Made by a program: the position numbers and the translations under genes. Shown in pieces: positions 1 through 46,789 of a stretch of DNA of 64,000 nt. Within the stretch, counting starts at the first letter, position 1. Each line of letters begins with the position of its first letter. The DNA comes from Podarcis vaucheri (lineage: Eukaryota). The notes beneath the pieces were generated by a model. The model searched no databases. It was given only the letters and a program-made list of their open reading frames with translations, and was not told the DNA's origin. The stretch lies in assembly GCA_965113315.1 (NCBI GenBank), contig OZ220363.1. One strand, 5' to 3'.

Positions 1-1844
1 CCAAAGATATTATAAGGATTTATATAAAAGAGGAGAGGAAACAGAACAAGAAATAGATCAATTTTTGCAAAAACACCATCTGGAACAAATTGTAGAAGAT
101 GAAAGAGCAGCACTAGATGAGATAATAACACAGGAAGAGATAAAAAAGGCTATCAAAAAGATGAAAGCTGAGAAGGCGCCGGGACCGGACGGTCTTCCAG
201 CCAAATATTATAAAATATTAATTAACCAAATATCACCAGTGCTGGGAGAGGTTATGAACAATATATTGAGAGAAGGAAAGATACCTGATACCTGGAAGGA
301 AGCCTATGTTACCTTGATTCCTAAAAAAGAGGTGGACACTATGGAAGTAAAGAACTATAGGCCAATCTCATTATTAAATAATGATTATAAGCTATTTGCA
401 GATATAATGGCGGAAAGATTAAAGAAGGTCTTGATTAATAAAATCCATGGTGACCAAACAGGATTTCTCCCAGGGAGACAATTACGGGATAATGTAAGGA
501 ATTTGATTGACATTATTGAATATTTGGACATGAAAATAGACAGAAAAGCTGCACTGGTTTTCATAGACGCCGAAAAGGCATTTGACAATGTTTCCTGGAA
601 CTTCCTAAAGAAGGTTTTGGAGAGGATGGGAATTGGTGAAAAATTTAGAAGAGGCATAGAAGCAATATACAAAGAACAGAAAGCAAAGCTGGTGATAAAT
701 AATAATACAACAGAATATTTTAACATTTATAAAGGGACCAGACAAGGTTGCCCCTGTCCCCCTTATTATTTATTATAATTTTGGAAGTACTTAATAAGAG
801 ACTGAGGGAGGCAACAGAAGTGAAAGGAATTAGAGTAGGAAAGAAGGAATTTAAAATTAAAGCCTTCGCCGACGATATTGTTCTGACTTTGGAAGATCCA
901 CAAGATAGTGTAAAAGAAGCATTACAAAAAATTGAGGAATTTGGAGAGGTGGCAGGTTTTAAGGTAAATAAGAATAAAACTAAAATGCTGGTTAAAAATC
1001 TAACTAAGGAAGAAACGAAAGATCTAGAACAAAAAGTGGAAATCATGGTGGTGAAAAAAGTGAAATATTTGGGAGTGTGGATCACGGCAAAAAACATAAA
1101 CCTATATAAAGATAATTATGAAGTTACATGGAAAAAAATAAAGAAAGATCTGGAAATATGGGAGAGGATGAAATTTTCCTTTTTAGGAAGGATAGCAGTG
1201 GTTAAAATGAATGTTTTGCCGAGAATGTTGTTCCTATTTCAAACTCTTCCAGTTATTAAAGGTTTAAAACAATGTAAAGAATGGCAGAGAACCCTGATGA
1301 AATTCATCTGGCAGGGGAAAAGACCAAGGATTAAAATGAAAATATTAACTGATAAAAAGGAAAGAGGAGGTTTTGCTCTCCCAGATTTGAGTTTATATTA
1401 TGAAGCAGCGTGCCTACTTTGGCTAAAAGATTGGATAAAACTGGAGAACAGAGACCTGTTGGATTTAGAAGGTTTCAATAATTGGTACGGGTGGCACGCA
1501 TATCTCTGGTATGAGAAGGTGAAAGTCCACAGGGCTTTCTTAAATCATATTTTCAGGGGACCAATATATCAGGTCTGGGAAAGAAATAAGAACCTTCTTG
1601 AAAGAAAAACACCATGGTGGATCTCACCGGTAGAGGTCTTAACAAAAAAAAAAACCAACATGGAAGAGAAGACAGCCACTTACGAAGATTTGGTAAGAAA
1701 ATCAGAACAAGGGCTTAAACTTAAACCTTATGAGGAAATAAAGGATCAATTCACCGGTTGGTTACAGTATCATCAGGTGAATGATATGTTAAAGCAAGAT
1801 AAAAGAAAAATGGGCTTTGAGGACAAGAAATCAAAATTCAATAT

Positions 1845-2601
1845 TGTCAGGGGTTCAGAAGCAGAGACGCAGAGAAGGGTGGAAACAGAGAGCGAGGGGG
1901 AGGAAGCCGAAGGGAGAATGAGTGATGATGACGACCCGAGATCTCCAAGCCTAAGCAGTGAGTCAGAGGACTCCCAAAAGGGAGCCCCAGTGAGCAGAGC
2001 AAGGGGGGGATCCGGGGGGACACCCCAGGAGGAAGGGAACAGAGGAGATTCAGAGAGCAGCAGCTGGAAGTCGGGACCCACGCTCAAGACTGAGAGCAGC
2101 AGGGAGGAAGGCAGCCAGGCATCGGGTTCCGGAGGCCGTCAGCAGGAGGGAGGGCACGAGTCAGGGGTGGTCACGCCCTCCTCAGAGAGCGAGGCAACGG
2201 TCAAGAGGAAAGTAGAGAGTTGGGCGCGCGCGCCAAGTTCAAATGCAGCGGAAGCTGGAGCAGTAAGCAGCCCGGAGAGTGAGCCAGGTCCCAAAGCCCG
2301 CCGAAAGGAAGCGGAAGGATCAGGGGGGTCAGCGTCAGAGGAGAGTAGAAGGGAGGAGTCCCAGGGGGGCAGAAGGACCCAGAGACGTAGGGAGAGGCGA
2401 AGGAGGTGGAGCAAGGCTAGGGTATTAAGCTGGTGTGCAAGAGGCGGGGACTCAGATGGGTCTTCGCCGACCTAGGGCAGAAGGTGTAGAGCTGCACGCT
2501 GCAGTTCGGAAATGAAACCTGTAACTCAATAAAGACTCTTTTAAAGTGGACGCTGTGTGGCGTGGTCCTATGTGAGCTGGGACCTGGTAGCAGCTCTGAC
2601 A
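1845..2601 (+). mobile_element. Solo LTR (probably Ty3/Gypsy-type), 757 bp, inserted in L1 ORF2
   Basis: Termini TGTCAG...CTGACA; 5-bp TSD AATAT (1840-1844 / 2602-2606); TATA-like TATTAA 2423-2428; AATAAA 2528-2533; abrupt shift to G/CpG-rich composition. Confidence 0.92.
1918..2475 (+). CDS. Putative LTR-encoded 185-aa acidic/Ser-rich protein with a C-terminal Arg-rich motif (RRTQRRRERRRRW)
   Basis: Frame is open from the LTR start to TAG 2473-2475; ATG at 1918 has A at -3; low-complexity disordered composition. Coding status unproven. Confidence 0.35.
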   Translation: MSDDDDPRSPSLSSESEDSQKGAPVSRARGGSGGTPQEEGNRGDSESSSWKSGPTLKTESSREEGSQASGSGGRQQEGGHESGVVTPSSESEATVKRKVESWARAPSSNAAEAGAVSSPESEPGPKARRKEAEGSGGSASEESRREESQGGRRTQRRRERRRRWSKARVLSWCARGGDSDGSSPT

Positions 2602-5051
2602 AATATAGAAATAATAGAAGGTAAAAACAAAACATTGTCTAAATTATACAACATATTACTGGAATGGCATACAAAAGACGAGGAAGTCAAAGAGGCAATG
2701 ATTAAATGGGCAATTGACTTCGGCTATAACATCGAGTTTGAAAAGTGGTTGAAATTGTGGAATAGAGATATTAAATTTACGGCCTGTACGAGTTTGAGAG
2801 AAAATGTCTGGAAAATGCTCTATAGATGGTATCTCACGCCGGCAAAATTAGCTAAAATCTATAGATCAGAAAATAAGACATGCTGGAAATGTGGTGAAGT
2901 GGAGGGAGACCTCTACCATATGTGGTGGCAATGCAACAAGGTGAAGGTTTTTTGGGAAGCAATTTATAATGAACTTAAAAAAGTTTTTAAATATACTTTT
3001 CCCAAAAGACCTGAGGCCTTTTTGCTGGGAATTATGGGTAAGGAAATAAAAAATGAAGATAAAAAAATTTTTCTCTATGCCACCACAGCCGCAAGAATTA
3101 TGCTGGCACAAAACTGGAAAACAGAAAATATACCTAACGTAAGTGACTGGCAGGTCAAAATGATTAACTATGCCGAGCTAGATAGATTAACAGGCAGAAT
3201 ACGAGACCAAGACGACCAGAAATTTCAAAAAAATTGGAGTAAATTTTGGAAATATATTGGAACGGATATATAGGAGGAACTGGCGGTATTAGAAAAACTT
3301 TATCAGCTAATAAGTATAAACTTTAATAAACTAATTACGCAATCCGGGATTTATTTGATACTTACCAAAAGGGTGGAGGGAAGTCAAAGGCTAAGTAGAG
3401 CCTAATGCTTATATTATTTTTTTTGTATGATTGTATGCTTACTTTTTGTATAGCATGAAAATAGGATGAATAATTTATGTTAAAATGTCTATTTTTGTAT
3501 TTGTTTGTCCTTTTTTTTTCTTTTACAAATTCTGAATAAAAATTTACTTGCAAAAAAGCTGGGTGGATTGTCACAGAGGTTGGATAAGAGGAACAAAATA
3601 ATCTTGCTGTTCCAGGACATACTTTTTTATATTAAAAGCAATGCTAGCTTGCTTCTGCACACACAGGGGTGATCCGTTACCCACCCAACCCTTTCAGTAG
3701 CATCTCCCTGGACTTCCTACAAAGCTCACCCTGAAGGTTGTGAGGGGTTTTTAGGAGGCACAAGGAGTGGAAGGGAGGCAAGAAATGAAGGAATCCATGG
3801 CCCCTTTGTGTGGAGGTGGATGTGGAGGCAGACCCTTACTTCCAGCGTACTTTCCCCCATGTTTAAATAGGTTCTCAAGACTGATTGACTGCGGCTCACA
3901 AAATGGTGGCACAAAACGGTGGCAAAGCCAGGGGCAGATGGAGGCAGTTTGGCATAATCAGCTGGCAGTTTCTGACATCATTTTCTACTGATATCTAATA
4001 CATCTCTGGAAATGACTACATTCTTTGCCAAAGTGTTTTCCTTGTAGCAACGACGCCTATATTTCAGTTTTTCTTATGATGAATATAGAGGTTTCCTCTG
4101 ACAGGATTGTGACAACATCCCTATTTTAGTCAGAATTTGCCAATCCAGAAGTTCCAAGTGGAGAAGGGTTTTTGTTTATATTTTTTCCTTCCTATCCCCA
4201 CATACCTCTCAGAAATATTTTTTTACCCATATCCTATCATTTCTTCTCACATTTTCCTTTCACACTCAGCTTGTACCTTATCCCTCCTCCCTGAAAAATC
4301 CTGAAAGTTTATTTCACCCCTTGTCCCTGGTTCTTTTACGTTCACTTTTTTCTCTTATAACAGCTTTCCTCATTCCTTTCAGTAATAGTTGTAGTAATAA
4401 TTATTATTACAGCAACTACCATCAACACTCTTTATCTGAGTTTCTAATTTCCTTCAACACCTCCTCTGGGCCACTTCCCACAGAGATGGAAGACCTTCCT
4501 CCCTTCCGGAACTTCTCTCTGAGTCATCTTGTTTTCTTCATACCAGGTTTGTTTCTTGCAATCACTTTTCTCTCTCTCTCTTTTGGTAGGTTAAAAAAGA
4601 AAAGAAAAGCAAAACAGGGGAAAGAGCAAACACTGCTTTGCTGGCTATTCTCTGATGTATTGCAGTCAGCATTGCTCTGTTCAGCTTGGATCCTGCAGCA
4701 AAATTGAATGCCACAGAAAAGTTAAGGGGCCTGCTATATTTGACATGATGTAATCCCAGCTGGCAAGATGTAATGAGTAAGCTGTTAGAAGACTGCTTCT
4801 GCTGCTCAGCTCTTGGACTAGGTAAAATAATTACAGCAGAGCATGCAATCCAGCCCTTGTTTGTAATCAAATTTTGCTAAACCCCCCCCTTTCCCCCCTC
4901 AACACCTGAGGGTGTTTTATGTTGTTTTGGTTGTCATAGACAAGAGATTGCCTTAACTTGATTCAGTGACAGTTTTTGTGGAATTCAAAGATTGCTCTTT
5001 GGCTTTCTTGTGCCCACGGGATGCCAGGACATTTGAGGGAAGCCCTCTAGA

Positions 5052-5378: not shown

Positions 5379-5482
5379 TAAAGGTAAAGGGACCCCTGAC
5401 CAAGGTCCAGTCACGGACGACTCTGGGTTTGCAGTGTTCATCTCGCTTTATTGGCTGAGGGAGCCGGCGTACAGCTTCCGGG
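5379..5482 (-). mobile_element. 5'-truncated Sauria SINE
   Basis: (AAAGGT)n tail on + strand; 11-bp TSD TCTCTCACTAG (5368-5378 / 5483-5493). Confidence 0.9.
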
Positions 5483-5577
5483 TCTCTCACTAGCCTGTAA
5501 GTTATTGCTTTGCCAGTCTTGAAAAGATCACAGGAAAATAGCTCTCCTAACCTAGAAGTTTGTTACTGAGCACTAGG

Positions 5578-5977
5578 TAAAAAACGCTAACGCTAAAGGA
5601 AAACGCTAAAGGATCCCTGGATGGTTAAGTCCAGTCAAAGGCTACTACAGGGTTGCGGCGCTCATCTCGCTTCAGGCTGAAGGAGTCGGCGTTTGTCCAC
5701 AGACAACTTTCCGGGTCATGTAGCCAGCATGACTAAACCACTTCTGGTGCAACGGAACACCGTGACGTAAGCCAGAGCACACGGAAACACCTTTTACCTT
5801 CCTGACACAGCGGTACCTATTTATATACTTGTACTGGTGTGCTTTTGAACTGCTAGGTTGGTGGGAGCTGGGACAGAGCAACAGGAGCTCACCCCGTAGC
5901 AGGGATTCAAACCGCTGACCTTCCAATTGGCAAACCCAAGAGGCTCAGTGGTTTAGACCACAGCACTGCCCGCATCC
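5578..5977 (-). mobile_element. Full-length Sauria SINE (older subfamily)
   Basis: Homologous over its length to the 13828-14192 copy; degenerate TSD TTAC(C)TGAG(C/A)ACTAGG. Confidence 0.88.
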
Positions 5978-13827: not shown

Positions 13828-14192
13828 GGGGCACGGATGGCACTGTGGGTTAAACCACAGAGCCCAGGACCTGCCGATCAGAAGGTCGGCGGTTCGAATC
13901 CCCGTGACGGGGTGAGCTTCCGTTGCTCGGTCCCTTCTCCTGCCAACCTAGCAGTTCGAAAGCACATCAAAGTGCAAGTAGATAAATAGGTACCGCTCCG
14001 GCGGGAAGGTAAACGGCGTTTCCGTGCGCTGCTCTGGTTCGCCAGAAGCGGCTTAGTCATGCTGGCCACATGACCCGGAAGCTGCCTGTGGACAAACGCC
14101 AGCTCCCTCGGCCAGTAAAGCGAGATGAGCGCTGCAGCCCCAGAGTCGGCCACGACTGGACCTAATGGTCAGGGGTCCCTTTACCTTTACCT
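13828..14192 (+). mobile_element. Full-length Sauria SINE
   Basis: tRNA-like head with GGTTCGAATCC B-box; (ACCTTT)n tail; TSD TACTCTTGAGTA(A/G)AA. Confidence 0.95.
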
Positions 14193-14639
14193 TACTCTTG
14201 AGTAGAACTAGCCCCAGACGTTTTGAACCTTGAGTTACCAGCTGATAATGGGACATTAAATTCCAGTGAAAGCCTGAATAAAGACCTCAACAGAATCGGC
14301 GACAAGTTGAATCGCAGAAGGGAGGGTGTTTTAAAGCTGGGGCACCACCACTGGGAAGTTTCTCCCTTGCATCACTGCCAAATGAGCCTCAGTAAGTGGC
14401 AGGACCTTAAAACCAAACCTCTTAAATCTTGTTCTTGCTGCACATCTATGCTCATGCTCTCTGTCAGATACACACACACATTTCTTCTTTTATAGCTACA
14501 GATGTAGAGTTTTCAGAAAGAAAAACAAACAAACAAGCAACATAAGTAAAGAAAGGAGATGGCGACTGAGTGACATCTTTGCATCTAAAATATCACATCA
14601 CATGCATTTGCAATTAAAATACATTTGATTATTTGTGGG

Positions 14640-14786
14640 NNNNNNNNNNNNNNNNNNNNNNNNNNNNNNNNNNNNNNNNNNNNNNNNNNNNNNNNNNNNN
14701 NNNNNNNNNNNNNNNNNNNNNNNNNNNNNNNNNNNNNNNNNNNNNNNNNNNNNNNNNNNNNNNNNNNNNNNNNNNNNNNNNNNNNN
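14640..14786. other. Assembly gap (N run)
   Basis: Run of N characters. Confidence 1.
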
Positions 14787-20198: not shown

Positions 20199-21134
20199 AG
20201 TCGTGTTGTAAGCTCTTCACCATGAGGACTGCCTTTTATTTTATTTTTAAAAGAAATCACTAAAACCAAACTTCAGGATGCCATAGTATGTGTTATACAG
20301 AGCTGACCTAAGACATTTTGGCACTTGAGGCAGACCAAGATGGCGTCTTCCCTCCCCGCCAGGGAAGAAGGAGTGAGGGAAGATCTACATCACTCACAAG
20401 GAGTCAGGTGTGGGGGAAGGAAGAAAAATCAGGTTCTGCTGCCCTGGTAGATTCTGCCGCCTGAGACAGTTGCCTCACCTTGCCTCATTGGTGGACCAGC
20501 CCTGGTAACATAGAAGAACTTGGACCACACACAGCCCTTCTCTGGCAGTGCATTTATGTTGATTCAAAGATTCATTCATTCAATGCAACTTGGAACCTGG
20601 CATTGTTCTGAGTGACACACACAAGTTCATTTGCTGACACTGGCTCCTGTTTAGAGAAAATGGTGTTTATCAAATCACATTGTACAGAAGTGACAAAACA
20701 AGCGCTCCTCTGCCAAATGCTCCCCCCCCCCGTTGCTCTATTTCGAAAACAGGGCTGTCATAGAAAACATTTTCTAATGCTGAGTAATATATGTACATGT
20801 TTTTCAATATCACCTTTTTAATACAGGAAATGTCAAACTAGACAGAAACAATTAGTCAGCTACTTGAGTTCCAGAACAAGGTGAAGTGGTTTTTTTCTCT
20901 CTCTCTCTTTTTCTTTTACTGCTAACATGCTGTTAGTACATGAAGTATTTGCCAGCACCTTTCATACTTACGGTAAGCTCAATGTTAACCATGAATCATC
21001 CGACTCAAGGCAGGGTAACTTTTCTGTCCTGTTGTTGTTGTTTAGCTTTGTTAGCCACTGTTTTTTTATAAATATATATATATATGGCTCAAAGTGACTT
21101 AAGAGGATAAAATACAACAGGTAGAAACAAGTAA

Positions 21135-21137
<3 letters not shown>

Positions 21138-21188
<51 letters not shown>
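21138..21188. repeat. (TA)n microsatellite
   Basis: Directly visible. Confidence 0.98.
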
Positions 21189-21191
<3 letters not shown>

Positions 21192-21237
21192 GGTTTTGGT
21201 GTCTTCGGGTGTCTTCCCGTGTAAGAGTCGGGGTGTC

Positions 21238-21281
21238 TGTGCGACGTTTCGACGAGGTCTCACTCGTCATCTTCAGGCTGG
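21238..21281 (-). ncRNA. Minimal type-I hammerhead ribozyme motif (mirror copy)
   Basis: Reverse complement of 21697-21740. Confidence 0.75.
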
Positions 21282-21696
21282 TGCTTTCGGCTTCTTGTTA
21301 CTGGAACAGAGCAGAGTCTGGTGTTTGAGTTCCTATAAATACTGTTGAGGGGTGTGGTGTATAGCCTCCAACGTTCTGGGCAGAGAGGAAGTTCCTAGAT
21401 TAGTGTGCCTTTTCTTCTTTTGTTCCTTAATTACTTGAGGGATATCTTGGGTGATTTCATGAGTGATATTCTGAATACCACTGGGTGGGTCATTAAGTGG
21501 TATTCAGAATATCACTCATGAAATCACCCAAGATATCCCTCAAGTAATTAAGGAACAAAAGAAGAAAAGGCACACTAATCTAGGAACTTCCTCTCTGCCC
21601 AGAACGTTGGAGGCTATACACCACACCCCTCAACAGTATTTATAGGAACTCAAACACCAGACTCTGCTCTGTTCCAGTAACAAGAAGCCGAAAGCA

Positions 21697-21740
21697 CCAG
21701 CCTGAAGATGACGAGTGAGACCTCGTCGAAACGTCGCACA
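21697..21740 (+). ncRNA. Minimal type-I hammerhead ribozyme motif
   Basis: CUGAAGA-U-GACGAG(ugagac)CUCGUC-GAAA-CG-UC: conserved core, 6-bp helix II, palindromic ACGU in place of helix III, GUC cleavage triplet. Confidence 0.75.
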
Positions 21741-21811
21741 GACACCCCGACTCTTACACGGGAAGACACCCGAAGACACCAAAACCTGCATTCCTGTACC
21801 CGTGAAAATCT

Positions 21812-21843
<32 letters not shown>

Positions 21844-22061
21844 GGTGTGTAAATGCTCATCCAGTAATGCGATGAAGACAGGTGCTACCCACCGCACTGA
21901 AAGATGAGCACCACCCTAGAGGCTAGCTTAGTTAGCAAATTCCCAAGTCAATAAAAAGGTGTTAGCATGGTAATTATAAAAATGGCACCAGGAAAGCATT
22001 CAACAGATGGCACCATGACTGAAAAGGCCCTTTTCTGTTATTGAGTAGATTTATCACATGT

Positions 22062-22350: not shown

Positions 22351-22515
22351 CATGAGAGCCAGTGTGGTGTAGCGCTTAGACATGGGAGACCAGGTTTCAA
22401 ATCCCCACTTGGTCATGACAGATTCAGCCATCCCTGAAAGGAGACAAGAAAATGAAAAGGTTTGAAAGTGAAGACTCAGAGCTGGCCCACTGAAATAAAT
22501 GAACCTAAGTTAGTC

Positions 22516-23850
22516 TGCAAACATCTTGTGTTCCATCATGTTTGAAAGCAGCCACCACTGTCCCAGTCTCAAAGAAAACAGCAACTAACTGCCTAAATGA
22601 CTACAGACCTATTGCATTAACATCTGTAGTGATGAAATGCTTCGAGAGATTGGTCCTTCAACACCTTAGGACATGGTTTCCTCCAGATTTTGATAAACAT
22701 CAGTTTGCCTATAGGAGAAATAGGTCAACAGATGATGCCATAGCTACAGCCTTTCACCTTGCAGGGAGTCATCTGGAGAGACAGGAATTATGTTAGAATG
22801 TTGTTTATTGATTATAGCTTGGCATTTAATGGTTTCCTTCTTCTGGACATTCTTATCAAAAAGCTGATGGAACTAGACCTTTCTTCTACCATCTGTGACT
22901 AGTTTAAAGACTTTCTGAGGGATCGGACACAAACAGTGAGGACTGGGCCTGTTATATCTACCTCCCTGAAGCTCAGCACTGGCACCCCACAGGGATGTAC
23001 TTGTTGTATGCATATGACTGTATTTCATCTGATCCATCCACTGTAATTATTAAGTTTGCAGATGATGCTACCATAATGGGTCTAATTACAGGTGGAGATG
23101 AATCAGCGTACAGGGGGGATGTTCATGGTACTTAGAGAATAACATGGCACTTAGAGAATAACTATTAGCAAGACAAAGGAGATTGTGCTGGACTTTCGGA
23201 GGAAGAAAGGGGAACTAGCCCCATTGTATATCCGGGGGGGGTTGTGTGGAGAGAGTCTCTTCCTTTAAATTCCTGGGTGTTTACCTTAGTTGGAAAACAA
23301 TATAACTCAGGTGGTTAGGAGGCCCAACAGAGACTCCATTTTCTCAGGGTCTTGCAAAAGAACAATGTTAAACAACAACTGATGACCTCCTTCTACCGGT
23401 CCACAATAGAAAGTGTCCTCTCATATTGTATCACAGTGTGGTACGTTGGCTTGACAGCCACGGACAGAAAGTCTTTACAGAGGGTAGTGAACACAGCACA
23501 TGATATCATGGGCTGTCCCCTGAGCCCGCTAGATGACATCGCAGGGATCATTGCCTTAGGAGAGCAAGAAAAATTCTCAGGGACGATTCACACCCCGGCC
23601 AGCACCTCTTTAATCTTCTACCCTCGGGCAGGAGATATAGAAGTATAATCAGTCGTACCAACAGGCTAAAAACCAGTTTCTATCTGTGGGCTGCTGAAAG
23701 GAAAATAATATAGTGTTACTGACTTTCAGGGATGGTGTGTTGTGCGACAAGCACACAGAGTGCAATGAGATTGAGTGTTGAGGGAGTGGGAGGGAGCCCC
23801 GGTTAATTTCATTGTACACAGGTTGTACATTGACAATAAAGGTATTATCA
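22516..23850 (+). mobile_element. Rex1/Babar-clade LINE, 5'-truncated, decayed RT
   Basis: CLNDYRPIALTSVVMKCFERLV, QFAYRRNRSTDDAI, VRMLFIDYS, GTPQG, KFADD, FYRSTIES; AATAAA plus short-repeat tail; TSD TTAGTC (22510-22515 / 23851-23856). Confidence 0.88.
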
Positions 23851-28302: not shown

Positions 28303-28652
28303 TGGGTGGCGCTGTGGGTTAAACCACAGAGCCTAGGACTTGCTGATCAGAAGGTCAGCGGTTTGAATCCCCACGACGGGGTGAGCTCCTGTTGTTCAGT
28401 CCCAGCTCCTGCCAACCTAGCAGTTTGAAAGCACGTCAAAGTGCAAGTAGATAAATAGGTACTGCTCCGGCGGGAAGGTAAACGGCGTTTCCGTGTGCTG
28501 CTCTGGTTCACCAGAAGCAGCTTAGTCATGCTGGCCACATGACCCGGAAGCTGTACGCCGGCTCCCTTGGCCAATAAAGCGAGATGAGCGCAGCAACCCC
28601 AGAGTCGGTCACGACTGGACCTAATGGTCAGGGGTCCCTTTACCTTTACCTT
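28303..28652 (+). mobile_element. Sauria SINE nested in an old CR1 3' fragment
   Basis: 13-bp TSD TACACAGATAAAT; (ACCTTT)n tail. Confidence 0.95.
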
Positions 28653-29061
28653 TACACAGATAAATACAGCCTCTGAACTTGGAGGGTGCATTTAACCGTC
28701 ATGGCTGATAGACATTGAAAAACTTGTCCTCCATGAATTTGTCTCATTTCCTTTCAAAGTCATCCATATGAGTGCTCATCATATAAATGTGTAATAATGA
28801 TCTGGAACTTGAGCTACAGAAAACCACCTACTTGTCCATTGAGCTTCTATTGAGTACTCTAACTGGCCATGGCTCTCTAGGATCTCCTACCTCTTCCTTT
28901 TAACTCGGAATGATGGACTGAGCCATAGGGCCTTCTGAATGAAAAGCAAATGCTCTACCACTGAGCTACAGTGACACCATTGTAGAGTAGACTTGGAGAC
29001 ATAGGTCTGGGACCCTGTTGCCCATGAGGGAGTATCAAATGACTCCCAGAGACAGCTAGCT

Positions 29062-34315: not shown

Positions 34316-37231
34316 TTAATCAGAAAGGCAAAGGCAGCCCGGGAGAGGTTGCCAAAATATGAGTCACAAATAGTCAACCCATTACTGTTTCAAATGAATT
34401 TCAGTCGTATCCTGAAAAGTACACAAACACAGAGAGATACAGATTGGCTAAGTATCATGTCTAAACTGGGTAATTGTCTGTGTAAATGAAATAGTCGGCC
34501 ATGCAGTAATACAATTTTTATATCCACATGTTCATTGCCAGGACATTGTCTGCCTGGATATTTGGTTGGATTTAAAACATAGTCACATTGCTGCAGATAC
34601 ATCTGGCACTTTATGAATGAACGAGTAACCGTTTCCAGAGATTAAAATGCTCAAAAACATTCCACAGCACAACAGCAAGCAAGTCAATGGCATGAGAGTT
34701 CATTTCAATGCTACTGCCAATGATGACAACTAAGATTTAAAAGTCTTCAGCTTGCAATTAGCTTTGTTTTTCCTTTTTTTTTTAAATTGGTAGGAGTGTG
34801 TTTACATGACCATGTCTTTTTCAAACCTTCATATTCTGTGCTTGATCTGTAACCATAGTAAGAGCTTTGTCAGATTAAATAAAGCTGGCGTTGACTTTGC
34901 AGATATATAGATATTAGTCAAAGCTGTCATTTATTCGTCTATCTAACCCCTTCTGAAATAAACACATTGAAACATCTGGACACCTTCTGCCAGGAACTTC
35001 ACCTGCAAAAATCCCACTGAAAGAAATTAAGCTATACAAGATGACATTCAACATGATCTCTCATGAAATAGCCATTCCCTTCAATGAAGCAAGAGGTGTT
35101 CCCTGAAAACTATGCATCCTTGGCATTTATTAACAGATACTAACCACTTTCCCAAAATAGTTATAGAAGTATTTCCTGCAAACTCACTGGGTGCGTGTGA
35201 AGTGTTAAACTGCCATACTCTTTTTCTGATGAACAGAATTTTACAGATTATGTCTACAGTGCAAACTTCAGCTACTGCCATCACCTGGTCAATCCAGGTG
35301 GCAGAGGCCTGTGAGTTCATACCTCCTGCACTTCAGTCTAACAGTGGTCTCCAAGGCTCAGTGGTAGGAATTCTGGCATATCCAAGGCATAAACATCCTG
35401 TTTGTGAAACATGGTGACCATTACTGGGCTGGGACACAAGCAGTCCTGGGAGGCTGTGTTAGGTGATATGGGATTGCATAACTGTCTGAGACAGAGGAAG
35501 AAGAAGAACTTAGTGTTAGTTTTTCTTTCATTTTCATGAAGCAGTTATGTGCTTCTTTATCAAACGTAGCCTTACCAAGCTAAATGTTGTCCAATCACAA
35601 AAATAATAGCATATTCCTCACACCCCAAAACATATTTTTAAGACCCCATCACTGAAGAAATTTGCAAAAATTAAGTTTCGCCTAAAATGATACAACTTAA
35701 TCCTCTAGTCCAAACTTCTTCTTTTTAGCATTCTGGTTTTTTCTGTTTACCAGGCATTTGCCAAATAACAATATTGCTGAAGCATATTACTGGACATTTT
35801 AAGTAAACAAATACACACTATAACTGCTTTTATCTGGGCACAAAAGTACATTTATGGTTGAATGACAATCCAGGCACTGGAACTGAATCGGTTCTTTTGG
35901 GTCAGCAGGCCATTTGAGGCATTCCTAAATTTCTGCCGGTTATCAGAAATTTGAACTGGTCATCTTTGGATTTCTGGGTGGCCATGTTTACATCATGTGG
36001 TAAGTCACTGAACTGCACAATGCAGCATCTTCCTGGGCTAACTTCCCTTAATCATGCCCTCCACAATGTTTTTGCACTACAGCTTCTATCAGCTTCAATT
36101 ATAATGGCCAAGGGCCAGAGATGAAGTAGTTCACAATATCTGGAGGACACCTATGTTGAGAAGATTGGCTTAGGCAGTTTAGTAAACTCAGGCCCTGGAC
36201 TAACTCCATCCACCCATGTCATCCACTGGATCTTCCTACACAGGAAGGACTATAAGAGGGCTTCCTGTTACTTAACTGTTAATTATTAATCTGATTGTTA
36301 ATAATAATAATTTTCCAATCTCTCAATTGCTATGTAAATGGAGAAAGAAACATGTGAATTTTGCGATGGGGCTCCTTCCTTTCTCACTTTTCCATGTGAC
36401 TTCATTCATGATCAAGTTCCCATCAGACTGTGATATGAACAAGGTCAAAGAGGATATTGTTACTACAGAACTGAGGAAGGATCTTGGTGTTCAAAGGTCA
36501 AAGCTTCCTTTGACTACTAGGAAGTCTGTGGAGTTTTGTTGTCGTTGTTGTTCCCTGAATGTCACCTGCAGCCAACCATAAATAACAAAAAGTGAATAAG
36601 AAAATTGATGCAAGAGGACATTATGCTGTGTACTACACCATACTGTGAAATTTAAGACCTTTACTTCTGAAAACTAGTTGCAAGGAAAAGTAATTCACTG
36701 GGAAGGAGGGTTGTAAATCTTTTAGCTGGACTCTACATTAAAGCCCACTGAAAGATTTATCCAGTTCGAGTTCTGCAGACATCACAAATGTTCTGACTAC
36801 TCAAAGATAATGTACTCCTTGATTCCTGCAAGGACATGGTGTAAACGTTGCTCTCCTTTAACCCATTCCTGAATGTCTTTCAAGAGAAAACTACTTGTGT
36901 GGGCCTTTCACATACATGAACCACCTTCTTTGCTGTCACGTTGGATAATTCAGAAAAATGAATTGGGTGTTGTGCCACTAGAGCACTATTATAGTGCCTG
37001 CTAAAATAAGACTCTGCTTCTCAAATCCTTGCAAACTTTTGCAAAATATTCTTTCAGTTTTGCAACACATTCAGCAGTTTCTAGAAATAAGGTTGGTCAG
37101 CTCCCAAGGCATCCTTGTTGAGTGTTGAAACTGGTTACCATTTCTCCTTATTTGATACTGTTTTTGGAAGAAAACAAAGGAACTATGTGAAATATTTAAA
37201 AGTGAAAGTTTTAAATATTTCAATTTGGATT

Positions 37232-39983
37232 ATAGAATCATAGAATCATAGAGTTGGAAGACACCACAATGGCCATCAAGTCCAACCCCCTGCCAAGCAG
37301 GAAACACCATCAGAGCACTCCTGACATATGGTTGTCAAGCCTCTGCTTAAAGACCTCCAAAGAAGGAGACTCAACCACACTCCTTGGCAGCAAATTCCAC
37401 TGTCGAACAGCTCTTACTGTCAGGAAGTTCTTCCTAATGTTTAGGTGGAATCTTCTTTCTTGTAGTTTGGATCCATTGCTCCGTGTCCGCTTCACTGGAG
37501 CAGCAGAAAACAACCTTTCTCCCTCCTCTATGTGACATCCTTTTATAATTTTGAACATGGCTATCATATCACCCCTTAACCTCCTCTTCTCCAGGCTAAA
37601 CATGCCCAGCTCCCTTAGCCGTTCCTCATAAGGCATCATTTCCAGGCCTTTGACCATTTTGGTTGCCCTCCTCTGGACACGTTCCAGTTTGTCAGTGTCC
37701 TTCTTGAACTGTGGTGCCCAGAACTGGACACAGTACTCCAGGTGAGGTCTGACCAGAGCAGAATACAGTGGCACTATTACTTCCCTTGATCTAGATGCTA
37801 TACTCCTATTGATGCAGCCCAGAATTGCATTGGCTTTTTTAGCTGCCGCGTCACACTGTTGGCTCATGTCAAGTTTGTGGTCAACCAAGACTCCTAGATC
37901 CTTTTCACATGTACTGCTCTCAAGCCACGTGTCACCCATCTTGTATTTGTGCCTCTCAATTTTTTTTGCCCAAATGCAATACTTTACATTTCTCCCTGTT
38001 AAAGTTCATCTTGTTTGTTTTGGCCCAGTCCTCTAATCTGTCAAGGTTGTTTTGAAGTGTGATCCTGTCCTCTGGGGTGTTAGCCACCCCTCCCAGTTTG
38101 GTGTCATCTGCAAATTTGATCAGGATGCCCTTGAGTCCATCATCCAAGTCGTTGATAAAGATGTTGAATAAGACCGGGCCCAAGACAGAACCCTGTGGCA
38201 CCCCACTAGTCACTCTTCTCCAGGATGAAGAGGAACCATTGATGAGCACCCTTTGGGTTCGGTCAGTCAGCCAGTTACAAATCCACTGAGTGGTAGCATA
38301 GTCAAGACCGCATTTTACCAGCTTCTTTACAAGAATATCATGGGCACCTTGTCAAATGCCTTGCTGAAATCAAGGTAGGCTACATCCACTGCGTTCCCTT
38401 CATCTACCAGGCTTGTAATTCTGTCAAAAAACGAGATCAGGTTAGTCTGACATGACTTATTTTTCAGAAATCCATGCTGACTATTGGTGATCACAGCATT
38501 CCTTTCTAGGTGCTCACAGACTGTTTGCTTAATGATCTGCTCCAGAATCTTCCCTGGTATTGATGTCAGACTGACTGGGCGGTAATTATTTGGGTCCTCT
38601 CTTTTCCCCTTTTTGAAAATAGGGACAACATTTGCCCTCCTCCAGTCTGCCGGGACTTCGCCTGTTCTCCAGGAATTCTCAAAGATGACTGTCAGTGGTT
38701 CTGAGATCACATCTGCCAGTTCTTTTAATACTCTTGGATGCAGTTCATCTGGCCCTAGAGACTTGAATACATCTAAACTAGCCAAGTATTCTTGTACTAT
38801 CTCCTTAGTTATTCTGGGCTGTGTTTCCTCTGCTGAATCATTTGCTCCAAATTCTTCAGGTCGTGCATTGTTTTCTTTATCGGAGAAGACTGAGGCAAAG
38901 AAGGCATTGAGGAGTTCAGTCCTTTCTGTGTCCCCTGTTTGCATTTCACCATCTTCTCCTCTGAGTGAACCCACTGTTTCTTTGTTCTTCCTTTTGCTAC
39001 GGACATACCCATAAAAGCCTTTTTTGTTGCTTTTAACCTCTCTAGCAAGCCTGAGTTCATTCTGTGCTTTAGCTTTTCTGACTTTGTGTCTACATGTGCT
39101 GGCTATTTGTTTGAATTCCTCTTTGGTGGTTTCCCCCCTTTTCCATTTTTTGTACACATCCTTTTTTTAATCTTAACTCAGTTAAAAGTTCTTTAGCTAG
39201 CCACCCTGGCTTCTTTAGGCACCTTATATGTTTCCGTCTCATTGGTATTGCCTGAAGTTGTGCTTTTACTATCTCCCTCTTAACAAACTCCCAGCCATCA
39301 TGAGCTCCCTTTTCTTTTAGTATTACTGTCCATGAGATCTCACCCATCACTTCCCTAAGTTTTATGAAGTCGGCTTTCTTAAAGTCAAGAAATTGAGTCC
39401 TAGTATGCTTGGCTGCTCCTTTTCGCTGTATAGTAAACTTCAGAAGAGCATGAACACTCGCGCCTAATGATCCTTCCACTTCTACCTCACTAACCAGGTC
39501 ATCAACATTGGTTAGGACCAGATCTAAAATGGCTGTTCCTCTTGTTGCTTCTCCCACTTTCTGGACAATGAAGTTGTCTGCAAGGCCAGTGAGGAATCTG
39601 TTTGACCTTATGCTCTTGGCTGAGTTTGACATCCAAGAAATATCCGGGTAATTGAAGTCCCCCATTACTACTATCTCCCTTCCTTTTGCATGCTTGGCCA
39701 TCTGTTCCAGGAAGGCATCATCTATGTCCTCCATTTGGCTTGGGGATCTATAGTAAACTCCCACAATAAGGTCACTGTTATTCTTCTCTCCCTTAATTTT
39801 GACCCAAATGCTCTCACTTTGGCTTTGAGGTTCTAAATCTTGGATCTCTTCACAGGTATAAACATCCCTGACATATAACGCCACTCCTCCTCCTTTCTTG
39901 TCTGGTCTGTTTCTCTGAAATAGATTGTATCCCTCCATTATTACATTCCAATCGTGGGACTTATCCCACCAGGTTTCAGTGAT
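37232..39983 (-). mobile_element. CR1 LINE, 5'-truncated within the endonuclease domain; near-intact ORF2 with three frameshifts
   Basis: APE motifs ITETWWD, VMGDFNYP, ILDLVL; RT motifs [31 protein letters not shown]; 3' tail (ATTCTATG)n. Confidence 0.97.
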
Positions 39984-41723
39984 TAAATTTTTTAAAATAT
40001 GTTTAGGACAATAGCCTATCTGACTGTAATTTGGCAGACTTTCTCCAACACTTCCCATCTCCTGGCTGGGTTCTTTATGTTTTGTTTTGTTTTTTACTTT
40101 CCCATGATGAATTGTGCCAATGTACAGACCTCTTAAATGTGGATCTCTTTATAACTCACAGCCACTGAAAAGTTTGCCCCTCTGTTAAAAAAGAAAAGCC
40201 AAGACTTCATTTGGTTACTGTGTTGCAAATTCTTATCCCATTTCAGCAAAACTTTCCAGAATATTGTCTTTTAATTCACATCTAATAGATTTGTAAAGTA
40301 CAGTTTTCTCCCTTTTTTCTAACAATTTTTCAAATTCAGCTTTACTTTGCCTTAACTCACTTCTTTGCTCTAATCTGTTCAGATAACAACATATTTTTTT
40401 AAAAAAAAACTGATAAGGGGAATTGGTTTATAATTTCATTACCACTTTTTCATAAGCTTTTACTTGTTACCAATCCTGATATAAATGCATGCATTTTTCT
40501 TACTATTTTTGAAAAGTCCCTAGATGTCTGATTGAATTTCTCATCCTTGGACAATATGAGTTCCTGGGGCAAGAGCTTGTTTGCAACTATCCCATGCTGA
40601 CAAGCAAATGTTTATGATGTAACTCAGTCCTTTATAGAGCTTTTTCCTAACAGTTTTAGACATCTGTAGGAGATTTCAGAGGCCTACTCAGACTGATATT
40701 TCTTCCATAAATCTATAATATATGTTCTCTTCTTCATTCCATTGCAGTAACCATGAAATGACTCTTGCCTCCTAATAACTTTCGATATCTGGTATTCCCA
40801 GATTCCCAGCCAGCCATTTTCAAAACTTTTGCTCTCAGAAAGCAGTTCTGCAGTTTCCAGATCCGTCAAGTAGACAGCCATCATCTGTAGTCATCATTTG
40901 GCTAGTGTAGCATCAAATCACAGAGATGGGGAAAACCAAGCTAAGCCCATCTACAGTAAAGCACAGAAATGGAACGCAGCAGGATTAAGGTTGCAATTCC
41001 ATGCACACTTACTTGGAAGTAAGTCTCACTGAACTCCGGGTGCTAAGCTCTGAACTGTGCAATGACGTCTTATAAAGAGGACTCGCTGCACTTAATTTTC
41101 ATCCCAGATTGTGTCCTGTCATTCCTTGCACATATGAATCTGGCCGGCTTCTTTATTTTATGTATACCCCACTTTTCAGTCCCCATGTGGCTCTCAAAGT
41201 GACTTACAGTTAAAATCCTTACAAAGATGCAATATATTCATGAGCCATATAGTTGTATGGAACAGGAAACAAGCTCTTTTGATCCCTGGCATCTGGTGAT
41301 AGAGTTTTGCTTGCCCCTGGTGTGGATGGGGATGGGTGAATCACTTTGGTTCCTCTCGGTTCCTCTTTTTTTTCAGTCTTAAGTTCAGTTATCCATATTT
41401 ACATATCACTTTGCAAAGAAAACCCCACTCCCTCCCCCACAAGACCTCATGAAAATCCAACAGCATTTTAGAGTGAATTTCTCCTAACATGCACATTTAC
41501 GTATGTAGTTTTTCAAAAACACACATATTTGCAGGGCAATCCCCTCTATCATAATTAACTTTTCTTTGCTATTTTTCACTAATATATGCATTCTGATGCA
41601 CACTTTACTTTGGCTGAAGAACTGCATTGCAAAATTGGGAGAAGTGTGAATTTTGAAGAACAGCTGCATTTTGGTTGTTCTCTCATTGCAGCGAATGTGG
41701 ATTAGGTAGGATTTGCAATAGTA

Positions 41724-42073
41724 GTGACGCTGTGGGTTAAATCACAGAGCCTAGGACTTGCCAATCAGAAGGTCGGCGGTTCGAATCCCCGCAACGGGGT
41801 GAGCACCCGTTGCTCGGTCCCTGCTCCTGCCAACCTAGCAGTTCGAAAGCACGTCAAAGTGCAAGTAGATAAATAGGCACCTCTCTGGCGGGAAGGTAAA
41901 TGGCGTTTCTGTGTGCTGCTCTGGTTTCACCAGAAGTGGCTTAGTCATGCTGGCCACATGACCCGGAAGCAGTACGCCAGCTCCCTCGGCCAATAAAGCG
42001 AGATGAGCGCCGCAACCCCAGAGTCGGCCATGACTGGACCTAATGGTCAGGGGTCCCTTTACCCTTTACCTTT
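41724..42073 (+). mobile_element. Sauria SINE nested in the TAGGGA-type element
   Basis: B-box GGTTCGAATCC; (ACCTTT)n tail. Confidence 0.93.
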
Positions 42074-43597
42074 ACTGCACCTTTAAATGCAAATGGAACT
42101 GTGCTTCTCCTCTGTCCCTAGGTGGAGAAGGTGGGAACCAGAAGACCTCATAGACAGAATAAAGGACAAGTTGATGAGAAAGGGTTACCATCCAACAGCA
42201 CCATTCACACACACACCTGTCTGCTTTCAGTCGAGTGAATGAAGAAACCCACCAGTTCAGGAAGCCTGTGCGCCCATCAAGCTGGGACAGTGTGTGAGGG
42301 ACTCGAGTGCCATAGTAATTTCCTGCTTTCAAAATAAGACCATGCTATTTATTCTAAACAATGATACTGTATGTTTAGCATAGGGAGGCCTCTATTAAAG
42401 CAGTTTGCTGATCATCATTAGCAAGTGTCAGGAGCCAGCCAGCTGCAGTCTGAATTAACTGGCATCTGTATAATGAACTATCAGAAAGCCCAGCTGACAT
42501 GGAATTGCTGCCCCCATCAATCCCTGATTAGTGTGAAACAGCAATCTGTATCAGTAGGGGAGGGCACTCTCTGGTAATAAGCTAGCCTAATGGCTAAAGG
42601 TTTATTATGCTCCACGTCCGAGACGTGCTTACTAATGACTCCCAGTGATGATAATATTCTCCTCTCTGAAATAAAATACGTTGGGCCAAGTGCCATGTGG
42701 CACTGTCGAAAGATCAGCCTGCAGACCTAAAACAAAAGAGAGAAAGAGCCAAGATAATTGAAATGGATTAGACTTCCTCTTGACTATTAATCACTAGACC
42801 TTGCCCGTTTCAGGAAATGTTACATGGCGCTCAATAAAATGAAAAGCTATGTCAGTGCACAAATAACTGCCTTGGAAAGTCACCTTTTGCCGGAATCATA
42901 CAAGGGTCATTTAGGCTATGGAAAGCAGGGCTTACTAGTTTTCCTGATTGTGCATCATGGCAAAATCAGTTGTCTGGACAGGAGCGCCAGGGAAGAGGCA
43001 GCAAACACCCAAAACTTTCATTGGCTAAATGACCTTTATTACGAGGCACATTGACACATTACTTGATAACTGAGAGTGGAACACTGCATTTTGAACCTGG
43101 GATTCCCAGTTTCAGTTACCTGGGACCTACTCCCAGGTAAGTGTGTTAGGCAATGTAGCACCCTCCATATGTTGTTGGACTCCAAACACGTCAACCCCAC
43201 ATGGCCAGGATGATAGAAACTGTAGTCCACAACATCTAGAGGGCAAATCTAGAGGGCCCTGGTGTACAGGACAGCACACTAAAGCATTCTATGGATGCTA
43301 TACATTGTGATATGTACATTCTACATATTAAAATAATAATAATAATAGGGGGAATTCAACAATGTGCTCTTCATTCAGTGCAATTACCTCTGCTTGCCGG
43401 AAGGAGAAATTCTCTCTGTCACTGTTCTGGAGATTCTGTTGGCTCCCTCAATATGGATTTTTGGGAGGGATAGGGATGTATGGGGGGGAGGGAAGCCCTG
43501 TTGTGCTAAAGGGAGCCATTATGCTGGCTTTTGCTAGTGCATCAGGTTAGTGCATCTCGACCAAGAGGTGATATTCAACTAAACTTTACTTAGAGTA

Positions 43598-43955
43598 AAG
43601 GTAAAGGTACCCCTGCCCGAACGGGCCAGTCTTGACAGACTCTGGGGTTTGTGCGCCCATCTCACTCAAGAGGCCGGGGGCCAGCGCTGTCCGGAGACAC
43701 TTCCGGGTCACGTGGCCAGCGTGACAAAGCTGCATCTGGCGAGCCAGCGCAGCACACGGAACGCCGTTTACCTTCCCGCTGGTAAGCGGTACCTATTTAT
43801 CTACTTGCACCCGGGGGTGCTTTCGAACTGCTAGGTTGGCAGGCGCTGGGACCGAGCAGCGGGAGCGCACCCCGCCGCGGGGATTCGAAATGCCGACCTT
43901 TCGATCGGCAAGCCCTAGGCGCTGAGGCTTTAACCCACAGCGCCACCCGCGTCCC
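43598..43955 (-). mobile_element. Young Sauria SINE subfamily copy
   Basis: 13-bp TSD TTTACTTAGAGTA; CpG-rich; closely similar to 62801-63163. Confidence 0.95.
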
Positions 43956-45754: not shown

Positions 45755-45886
45755 TTCTCTGTTACAATCTCTGGAGGGTCATCTAATCCTATCCCCTGTA
45801 ATTGCAGGAATCTTTTGCCCAATATGGGGCTCGAACCCACAACCCTGAGATTAAGATTCTCATGCTCTACCGACTGAGCTATTAGG
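45755..45886 (-). mobile_element. tRNA-Lys(CTT)-derived SINE with CR1-like tail
   Basis: Minus strand TAGCTCAGTCGGTAGAGCATGAGAATCTTAATCTCAGGGTTGTGGGTTCGAGCCCCA; acceptor stem broken; continues into ...TAGATGACCCTC. Confidence 0.8.
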
Positions 45887-46789
45887 AAGACTATAGCAGA
45901 GGTTAACCTGTAGCTCGTCAGAGAATATGATCCATCAGCCCCAGAGAATATGACCAACGTTCACAGAGGATAAGAGCTGTAGTCCAACAATATCTGTAGG
46001 ACTTCAGATTAGCCACTCCTGGACTATAGAATTCCTTCCCTACAAATAAATGGATACAATGCAGTTGGCCTCGATCTATTCCAACTGTACTAAGAAGCTG
46101 GTCTCAATATATATTGTGCTAGGATTAGACAGCTCTTTCCTCTCCCTTGTCCCATAACTTCTCAAGTAGAAGATCATTTCAAACACATGTGATTGTTTTA
46201 AATTGCAGCTATGCTGCCTACTCAAGTCACACAGGTCTTCTCTGAAGCAAACTAACAAGCTTCTACTTCAGGAGGAGTATGGTGTGCAAGATAAACTTAC
46301 GTTGTTGCCAGCTAGTCACCTAAGGACAGATTCATATGTTTAGGTAAGTTAAGACTGAGCATGCTTGAAGGCTCGTGCTGTTTTCCAAGATGGATGCCCG
46401 GTGGAGGTCTATGTGAACCACAGCTAGTTTCCATGTTTTATGCAGAATTGCTTGCTAAGAGGGTTTTGAAAATTCACCCACTATGCAAGAAGATTAAAAA
46501 GCATGCAAAACCATTTTATATCACTATCAAATTAAGAAACCCCTATTTGAAATATAGGCATTCTTATGAATATAAGAAGCTGCCTCTAGACCAGTTCTGG
46601 CTAGCAACAGACCATCAATCAGAATTTCTCTGAGATCCTTAATTGGCGATCCCAAAGATTTAATGTGCAATCATGTGCACGCAAAGCACGTGCTGTGCCA
46701 TGGAGATATCTGCCCTCATCTTTATTATATGAAAGTATTCAACAGTGCCTGCAAGATTTTTTAATACTTTATTTGATTGAGGGAGGTGG

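What the first reader, a model, noticed from the sequence alone, without database searches (positions are those of the whole stretch)
21187..21813. Perfect 296-bp fold-back Penelope-like repeat with mirror-image minimal hammerhead ribozymes
Seen: by eye the arms are exact reverse complements around a 13-nt spacer. Each contains CUGAAGA...helix II (GACGAG/CUCGUC)...GAAACGUC, in which helix III is only the palindrome ACGU and helix I is weak. Established: Penelope-like pseudo-LTRs carry minimal hammerheads thought to cleave as dimers, and often occur with an inverted partial repeat. Inference: transcription in either direction gives a ribozyme plus its perfect antisense, forming a ~300-bp dsRNA hairpin. 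This would be a self-inhibited ribozyme and a likely endo-siRNA/ADAR substrate that could silence the family in trans. The DNA would be cruciform-prone, and arm identity implies very recent origin or gene conversion.
Basis: partly seen in the sequence, partly recalled or inferred. Interest (0 to 1): 0.7.

Follow-up and report, generated by a model that had tools for sequence, protein, structure and literature searches.

The report
Inverted Penelope retrotransposon fragment in lizard
A young, shortened copy of a known kind of jumping gene landed in a lizard genome as a perfect mirror-image pair, a layout typical of this transposon family, and its junction hints at how such mirror copies are made.

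Summary
Two 296-bp arms (21187-21482, 21496-21791) are perfect reverse complements around a 13-nt spacer, each with a minimal hammerhead.

It is a 5'-truncated insertion of a lacertid Penelope/Poseidon-type retrotransposon. Its frame matches the C-terminal extension of RT/GIY-YIG proteins, including Podarcis muralis models. It has a 20-nt one-sided tail and sits between (TA)n and (AC)n.

Head-to-head inverted ends, tails, opposite-strand hammerhead pairs and siRNAs from Penelope inverted regions are all published. The arms are identical most simply because they were born so; gene conversion is not needed.

The 'self-inhibited ribozyme' idea is weak. Helix I has 2 bp, the two ribozymes never share a strand, and transcripts from the element's own TATA-like motif would leave the ribozyme unpaired. 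No transcription or host gene was shown.

One useful new detail: the spacer is element sequence continuing the tail-less arm, with a 4-nt overlap at the junction, while the tail is on the other arm. This excludes simple fold-back of one tail-bearing cDNA. It favours priming from both target strands at two start sites, a rule testable across copies.

The parts
21138..21188 (.). (TA)25 microsatellite, left target flank; its last AT overlaps the tail-less end of the element
21187..21482 (-). Left arm: tail-less 3'-terminal (pLTR) fragment, element-sense on the - strand, ending at +84 from the hammerhead ATG
21243..21276 (-). Mirror minimal hammerhead core (C3 to C17)
   Evidence: mirror coordinates
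21334..21339 (+). TATA-like motif in the left arm (mirror of 21639-21644); promoter function not tested
21483..21495 (-). 13-nt spacer: element sequence continuing the left arm upstream; with 4 nt of the right arm it reads H-L-M-T-H, as in family proteins P0002, P0003 and P0004
21496..21499 (.). 4-nt junction overlap (AGTG on +, CACT on -): start of the right arm and, on the other strand, the family continuation
21496..21791 (+). Right arm: element-sense pLTR fragment encoding the C-terminal extension of the family RT/GIY-YIG ORF, with 1-nt frameshifts near 21632 and 21658 relative to P0002/P0003
21639..21644 (+). TATA-like motif readable on both strands, about 70 nt upstream of the ATG; not tested
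21702..21735 (+). Minimal type I hammerhead core; predicted cut after 21735; helix I only 2 bp
21708..21812 (+). ATG at the 5' side of helix II opening a frame (M-x6-KRR) through the tail; inferred start of the family ORF
   Evidence: same placement in PAc; P0007 begins M-x6-KRR
21716..21718 (+). TGA in hammerhead loop II, directly after the codons matching the last residues of P0002 and P0003
21792..21811 (+). 20-nt unmirrored tail (22 nt if the next AC belongs to it), ending at +104 from the ATG
21812..21836 (.). (AC)12 microsatellite followed by (AT)4, right flank

Best explanation
This is a dead-on-arrival, 5'-truncated, head-to-head insertion of an endonuclease-bearing Penelope/Poseidon-type retrotransposon in a lizard (probably lacertid) genome, inserted into a (TA)n/(AC)n microsatellite. 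The mirror is a by-product of integration, not a selected regulatory device. SHOWN: family identity, arm identity, tail on the right arm only, spacer belonging to the left arm, 4-nt junction overlap. INFERRED mechanism: the RT/GIY-YIG protein nicked both target strands and primed two antisense cDNAs, one from the (TA)n side at the tail-less start site (+84) and one from the (AC)n side at the tail end (+104 to +106). The tail-less cDNA ran 13-17 nt further. Its 3' end AGTG paired with CACT, either by folding back on itself (the new sense strand then pairing with the tail-bearing cDNA) or directly with the other cDNA's 3' end, and fill-in sealed the pair. The two hammerheads are passengers of the pLTR, and the locus is most likely inert. 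Confidence 0.85 is for identity and by-product status; the dual-priming route alone is about 0.55.
For: The arm's frame hits P0002 (P. muralis gene model with this sequence as its C-terminus, 93% over 46 aa) and P0003 (unnamed, GIY-YIG-bearing), 2 of 5 candidates. The frameshift-aware alignment gives 73 of 80 identical positions to P0002. P0003 hits P0004 (P. muralis LOC144326219, RVT_1 + GIY-YIG, 89%). Spacer polarity: score 71 for the reverse-complemented spacer against 57 as written and 53 for the arm alone; 12 of 3000 shuffled and 1 of 3000 random spacers reach 71. Both arms carry the same 2 frameshifts and 4 residue changes relative to P0002, so both derive from one source. PAc protein nicks and extends both strands, prefers AT-rich DNA, starts RT at two sites whose interval is the tail, and is a predicted dimer. 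An inverted pLTR with optional tail and a palindrome at the junction is the typical Penelope structure. CpG o/e is 0.68 against 0.27 for the window; 7 of 202 tiles, the element's own included, reach it. Zero differences bound the age to <1.7-5 My at assumed rates of 3e-9 to 1e-9 per site per year.
Against: The mechanism rests on one locus. No family DNA was available, so the natural junction sequence is inferred from protein, and the spacer alignment needs a 1-nt frameshift. The Leu before Ser-Gly also matches on the + strand. The natural 21-23-nt junction hairpin is weak and not above shuffles (antisense RNA -3.1 to -6.4 kcal/mol, 41 and 26 of 200 shuffles as good; DNA -0.1 to -1.9). The tail is 20 nt, shorter than the 30-40 nt reported. 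No target-site duplication can be read inside the microsatellites. The N-terminal peptide found no true homologue. The region of the tail shows no notable stem-loop (z +0.72), whereas PAc starts RT in an AC-rich stem-loop.
Confidence: 0.85

Rival explanations
1. Same element, different route: a single antisense strand (RNA or cDNA) that included the tail self-primed by fold-back, as proposed for rotifer Penelopes, and the tail was then trimmed from its 5' end during integration.
For: Predicts the observed spacer polarity, a short loop and identical arms. The junction folds better as antisense RNA than as sense RNA (-3.1 vs 0 kcal/mol for 21 nt; -6.4 vs -3.0 for 23 nt). Proposed in PMC3846280.
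Against: Needs an exact trimming step at the tail boundary, whereas PAc data explain the tail by two RT start sites on sense RNA. The hairpin is not better than shuffles.
Confidence: 0.25
2. One reading: the locus is transcribed into a ~300-bp hairpin that masks the ribozyme and feeds endo-siRNA/ADAR pathways, silencing the family in trans.
For: Read-through RNA on either strand folds into a 296-300-bp duplex with the ribozyme fully paired. In transformed D. melanogaster, siRNAs mapped to inverted regions of Penelope.
Against: No transcription evidence. Only 2 of 299 ORFs of >=58 aa had Pfam hits, both in one decayed LINE-like stretch, so no host gene was found; short exons would be missed. 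Internal-promoter transcripts leave the ribozyme free. The Drosophila siRNAs did not silence efficiently. That dsRNA is made at some level is plausible; that this locus silences the family is not shown.
Confidence: 0.1
3. Post-insertion DNA event: one ordinary truncated copy was later duplicated by repair fold-back, or the arms were homogenised by gene conversion.
For: Perfect arm identity. In yeast, Alu inverted pairs with a 12-bp spacer induce breaks.
Against: Neither arm holds all the information: the tail is only on the right and the spacer continues only the left, so neither arm can be a simple copy of the other.
Confidence: 0.05
4. Assembly artefact: a fold-back read chimera, or polishing that homogenised two arms.
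For: The window is from a gapped assembly (147 N at 14640-14786). Complex PLE structures trouble assemblies. The three 1-nt deletions could be sequencing indels. Reads were not available.
Against: The mirror stops at the element boundary and does not extend into unique flanks. The flanks differ, the spacer is element-derived rather than foreign, and the one-sided tail matches published PLE structure. Perfect identity through polishing cannot be excluded.
Confidence: 0.05

Closest known systems
Poseidon_Ac (PAc), Penelope/Poseidon PLE of Anolis carolinensis (PMC11167929)
   Same: ORF start at the start of hammerhead stem II; cut 25 nt after the start codon here and 26 there; element ends inside the first codons of the ORF with an optional tail; AT-rich target.
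   Different: Tail 20 nt, ends at +84 and +104, against a 30-40-nt tail and a start site at +111-118. No sequence comparison with PAc was possible (its GenBank supplement is unreadable). The paper does not discuss inverted insertions: 'inverted' occurs once, for a dT block.
Adineta vaga Pen2/Pen2a Penelope elements (PMC3846280)
   Same: Head-to-head inverted pLTRs, optional tail on one arm, pLTR including the first codons of the ORF, TATA readable both ways, palindromes at the inverted junction.
   Different: Here there is no ORF body, only a 0.3-kb pair, and no readable target-site duplication.
Minimal hammerheads of metazoan PLEs (PMC4209133)
   Same: Conserved core, extra nucleotide between 9 and 10.1, G10.1-C11.1 pair, palindromic helix III. 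Dual min-HHRs 100-700 bp apart on opposite strands were already reported in Schistosoma; here the cut sites are 492 nt apart.
   Different: Helix I is 2 bp instead of the 4-5 bp consensus; a 2-bp helix I was described for D. virilis Penelope.
Drosophila Penelope copies with long inverted repeats (PMC3681739)
   Same: Rearranged copies with inverted regions that can give dsRNA and siRNA.
   Different: There siRNAs were observed; here no RNA data exist.
L1 twin priming (recalled, not read here)
   Same: Two target-primed cDNAs joined by a short overlap give a 5' inversion.
   Different: L1 inversions use different parts of one RNA and do not duplicate them; here both arms cover the same 296 nt.

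Membership tests
EN+ Penelope-like element | Single ORF with RT and C-terminal GIY-YIG endonuclease | tested here: met
   Met through relatives only; the window copy is truncated. Arm -> P0002/P0003; P0003 GIY-YIG E 6e-4, below the curated cut-off; P0004 RVT_1 E 4e-16 plus GIY-YIG E 1e-3, 89% to P0003.
EN+ Penelope-like element | 5' truncation with an adjacent inverted copy (head-to-head) | tested here: met
   described as typical
EN+ Penelope-like element | Optional tail on one end only (30-40 nt reported) | tested here: met
   One-sided tail present but 20-22 nt long
EN+ Penelope-like element | Terminal repeat includes the ORF start and a hammerhead | tested here: met
   ATG 21708 at helix II with an open frame through the tail. 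1 of 9 fetched proteins (P0007) begins with the same M-x6-KRR pattern; the others start elsewhere. A direct homologue of the peptide was not found.
EN+ Penelope-like element | Target-site duplication or AT-rich/microsatellite target | tested here: inconclusive
   Flanks are (TA)25 and (AC)12(AT)4; no duplication can be read and no empty allele was available
Penelope/Poseidon clade (vs Neptune/Nematis) | No CX2-5CxxC zinc-finger-like motif in the RT-EN linker; Cys and His residues of the GIY-YIG motif present | tested here: met
   Motif absent in 9 of 9 fetched proteins, 7 of which contain this region; C505, C508, H543 and H549 invariant in alignment A1; criterion
Penelope/Poseidon clade (vs Neptune/Nematis) | RT phylogeny with reference elements | not tested
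   No named reference PLE proteins were among the fetched sequences; no tree was built
Minimal type I hammerhead | Core CUGANGA...GAAA...UH, nucleotide between 9 and 10.1, G10.1-C11.1, palindromic helix III | tested here: met
   criteria
Minimal type I hammerhead | Helix I of 4-5 bp | tested here: not met
   2 bp, pair probability <=0.009 in all six modelled transcripts
Minimal type I hammerhead | Self-cleavage as a dimer or with protein help | not testable with these tools
   A fold with two helices II plus the ACGU duplex scores -20.3 kcal/mol, against -23.2 for two monomers and -29.4 for the best cofold; no cleavage assay
Minimal type I hammerhead | Core conserved across the family | tested here: inconclusive
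   P0002 and P0003 both end in QPEDDE, compatible with the 5' half of the core; the 3' half and the DNA were not seen
Non-LTR retrozyme | At least two consecutive tandem units each with a hammerhead | tested here: not met
   Inverted, not tandem; definition
Known miRNA / Rfam RNA family | Match at or above the family gathering score | tested here: not met
   0 of 30 matches in 21000-22000 reach gathering

The most novel reading that the evidence does not exclude
Head-to-head Penelope insertions record simultaneous priming from both target strands by a dimeric RT/endonuclease using the two start sites that define the tail. The family would then obey a fixed rule: the spacer always continues the tail-less arm, junctions carry short overlaps, and in short insertions the two cDNAs are about equal in length (313 vs 316-318 nt here), so spacer plus overlap roughly equals tail length (17 vs 20). 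That would link the in vitro PAc chemistry to the unexplained inverted pLTRs, and would make dsRNA-forming hairpins a routine product of Penelope integration.
Probability: 0.3. Interest if true: 0.6.

Novelty: new member of a known kind. Interest (0 to 1): 0.3.

Why it matters
As a single locus it matters little: it is a typical truncated Penelope insertion. Its value is as a clean fossil of integration. How PLEs make tandem and inverted structures is named as an open question in PMC8557442. Tail side, spacer side and junction overlap can be scored across many recent lizard copies to separate dual priming from antisense self-priming. A perfect 296-bp pair with a 13-nt spacer is also in the range that breaks chromosomes in yeast (12-bp-spacer Alu pairs induce breaks, though about 80% fewer at 9 bp than perfect palindromes and with no detected fork pausing at 9-12 bp), so such insertions may be short-lived or rearrangement-prone.

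Tried and rejected
Rfam: no hammerhead model matched; the miRNA-model matches reflect the hairpin and are all below gathering.

N-terminal peptide searches: none in the word-based search of longer proteins. The single HMMER hit P0001 (E 4e-13) is rejected as a sum over 15 tandem-repeat stretches of about 20 bits each.

DNA searches: no match in plasmids or phages and no exact hammerhead match in prokaryotic genome contigs, as expected.

Host gene: 299 of 328 N-free stop-to-stop ORFs of >=58 aa were scanned; 29 in the two LINE blocks (below 3400, and 37200-40300) were left out. Two had Pfam hits, both in a decayed LINE-like stretch at 22.5-23.6 kb. The flanks showed no interrupted repeat spanning the insertion.

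Supplements of PMC11167929: Fig. S2 is an image, the table lists only read accessions, and the consensus file is unreadable; file 1 was not opened. These may bear on tail and junction comparisons.

Rejected: simple fold-back of the tail-bearing target-primed cDNA (predicts the opposite spacer orientation); one arm copied from the other after insertion; retrozyme; Neptune assignment (no linker motif).

Literature: a search for Penelope + twin priming + inverted + retrotransposon gave 2 papers whose listings are not about PLE mechanism. A search on Penelope-like, inverted, self-priming, fold-back, hairpin and cDNA gave 141 papers; of the 20 listed, only PMC3846280 addresses PLE junctions. Subscription papers, including the original PLE structure papers, are not in the library, so the polarity rule may already be in print.

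Full report
OBSERVATION. Arms 21187-21482 and 21496-21791 are perfect reverse complements over 296 nt around a 13-nt spacer. The next-longest exact inverted match in the window is 45 nt. The left end abuts (TA)25 and shares its last AT. The right arm runs on for 20 unmirrored bases (21792-21811) into (AC)12(AT)4. Each arm holds one minimal hammerhead: core 21702-21708, an extra U, a 6-bp helix II, GAA, the palindrome ACGU and C17 at 21735; helix I is only 2 bp. Rfam does not recognise it. No other copy lies in the window.

IDENTITY. The frame at 21496-21642 found 2 proteins among 5 candidates: P0002, a Podarcis muralis TRAX gene model whose C-terminus is this sequence (93% over 46 aa), and the unnamed P0003, which carries a GIY-YIG domain. 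P0003 found 6 longer proteins among 1782 candidates. The best is P. muralis LOC144326219 (P0004, 89%). All 6 have RVT_1 and 5 of 6 have a weak GIY-YIG match below the curated cut-off. None has the linker CX2-5CxxC motif that marks Neptune/Nematis, so the family is assigned to Penelope/Poseidon by motif; no tree was built. The host is therefore a lizard, probably a lacertid (inference). The ATG at 21708 lies at the start of helix II, as in the Anolis element PAc, and P0007 starts with the same M-x6-KRR pattern (1 of 9 proteins). Direct searches with this N-terminal peptide found no true homologue. P0002 and P0003 end on the codons just before the TGA in loop II (21716-18), so in those two copies the reading frame runs through the whole terminal repeat and ends 11 nt into the next unit's start. 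The window copy differs by three 1-nt shifts. CpG is retained (o/e 0.68 vs 0.27; 7 of 202 tiles reach it), and zero arm differences bound the age to under about 1.7-5 My at assumed rates.

JUNCTION. Read on the - strand, the spacer plus 4 nt of the right arm encodes H-L-M-T-H, which P0002, P0003 and P0004 all have at this place. The reverse-complemented spacer scores 71, against 57 as written and 53 for the arm alone; 12 of 3000 shuffled and 1 of 3000 random spacers reach 71. So the spacer is element sequence continuing the LEFT, tail-less arm, and CACT/AGTG is a 4-nt overlap. The tail is on the RIGHT arm. Neither arm contains all the information. This excludes one arm being a later copy of the other, and it excludes simple fold-back of a tail-bearing target-primed cDNA, which would leave the spacer in the opposite orientation. 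Both arms share 2 frameshifts and 4 residue changes relative to P0002, so they come from one source. Caveats: the natural DNA is inferred from protein, the spacer alignment needs a 1-nt shift, and the natural junction hairpin is weak and not above shuffles.

MECHANISM (inferred). PAc protein nicks and extends both strands of AT-rich DNA, starts reverse transcription at two sites whose interval is the tail, and is a predicted dimer. Applied here: one cDNA was primed from the (TA)n side at +84 and one from the (AC)n side at +104 to +106, each end showing a 2-nt match to its flank. The tail-less cDNA ran 13-17 nt further and its 3' end paired with CACT, on itself or on the partner; fill-in completed the pair. 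The two strands would be 313 and 316-318 nt long. I give this route about 0.55. [quoted passage not shown] It also fits the polarity and the better antisense-RNA fold; I give it about 0.25.

RIBOZYME AND dsRNA. But each strand carries only one ribozyme, so the locus offers no cis dimer. Helix I forms with p<=0.009, and a two-copy fold with the ACGU duplex (-20.3 kcal/mol) is less stable than two monomers (-23.2). A single minimal HHR did not cleave, and dimers cleaved weakly. The PAc HHR needed protein and was dispensable for insertion in vitro. Transcripts modelled from the element's TATA-like motif leave helix II free (p 0.80-0.98) with at most a ~117-bp hairpin; these start sites are assumed. 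No host gene was found (2 of 299 ORFs with Pfam hits, both LINE-like), though short exons and non-coding transcription would be missed. siRNAs from Penelope inverted regions are known in Drosophila and were judged unable to silence efficiently.

ARTEFACT CHECK. Reads were not available and the assembly has a gap elsewhere. The mirror stops at the element boundary, the flanks differ, and spacer and tail are element-type sequence, which a fold-back read chimera would not give. Homogenisation by polishing cannot be excluded.

COMPARISON AND NOVELTY. Inverted 5'-truncated copies with a one-sided tail are described as typical PLE structure, and opposite-strand pairs of minimal hammerheads 100-700 bp apart were reported in 2014. 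The locus is a new member of a known kind. The spacer/tail polarity reading was not seen in the papers read or the listings, but the original structural papers are outside the library.

PAPERS SEEN. PMC11167929: parts 1-2 of 4 of the text (abstract, main text, start of methods), passages, supplements 2 and 3. PMC4209133: parts 1-2 of 4. PMC8557442: passages. PMC3846280: passages and the Discussion. bioRxiv 10.64898/2026.07.22.740005: part 1 of 5 and passages. PMC3681739, PMC3136932, PMC8053094: passages. Others: search listings only. Recalled and from no call: L1 twin priming, the label 'Sauria SINE', LINE clade names, and the substitution rates used.

VERDICT. Real, young and ordinary in kind. 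The regulatory interpretation is unshown and weakened. Interest 0.3, with one testable mechanistic lead.

Noticed in passing
window 21708-21718; P0002, P0003: In two family copies the ORF reads through the whole terminal repeat and stops at the TGA in hammerhead loop II, so the end of one ORF overlaps the inferred start of the next unit by 11 nt in another frame. The unit would be wholly coding, and stop-start coupling in tandem RNA is conceivable. The window copy has three 1-nt shifts relative to that frame.
   Followed up: partly
P0007 (unnamed record): This 994-aa PLE protein begins M-x6-KRR and near its C-terminus has AETSS, like the window's other-frame translation of the hammerhead 3' core (VETSH). 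Its ORF may start in one hammerhead and read through a second, different one.
   Followed up: no
P0002 (P. muralis TRAX model A0A670HLY4) and P0004: A host gene model ends in about 110 residues of this PLE's C-terminal extension (exonisation or mis-annotation). P0004 leaves the family sequence right after HLS, the same point as the fold-back junction here; a splice site or a recurrent junction are both possible.
   Followed up: no
P0005-P0009: Apart from P0004 (89%), the longer relatives of P0003 are only 46-57% identical and unnamed, so the lizard family looks isolated in this database; horizontal origin was not tested.
   Followed up: no
window 2-3273 (+): Large LINE-type RT ORF fragments, interrupted in frame (about 2110-2475) by an unrelated Ser/Glu/Gly-rich insert.
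   Followed up: no
window 37310-40148 (-): Near-complete LINE ORF2 (endonuclease plus RT; CR1-like, label recalled) broken by a few frameshifts.
   Followed up: no
window 5403-5964, 13835-14197, 28304-28656, 41722-42075, 43596-43955, 51600-51837, 56936-57175, 62801-63167: About eight copies of a ~350-bp SINE family in both orientations, 74-96% alike in matched segments (Sauria SINE, label recalled), much more diverged than the Penelope arms.
   Followed up: no
window 45816-45887 (-) and 51399-51468 (+): Two degenerate tRNA-like Rfam matches (45.6 and 32.2 bits), probably heads of tRNA-derived SINEs.
   Followed up: no
window 22509-23645 (+): Decayed LINE-like RT fragment 0.7 kb right of the element (RVT_1 and ALKBH8_N Pfam hits).
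   Followed up: partly
window 14640-14786: Assembly gap of 147 N.
   Followed up: no
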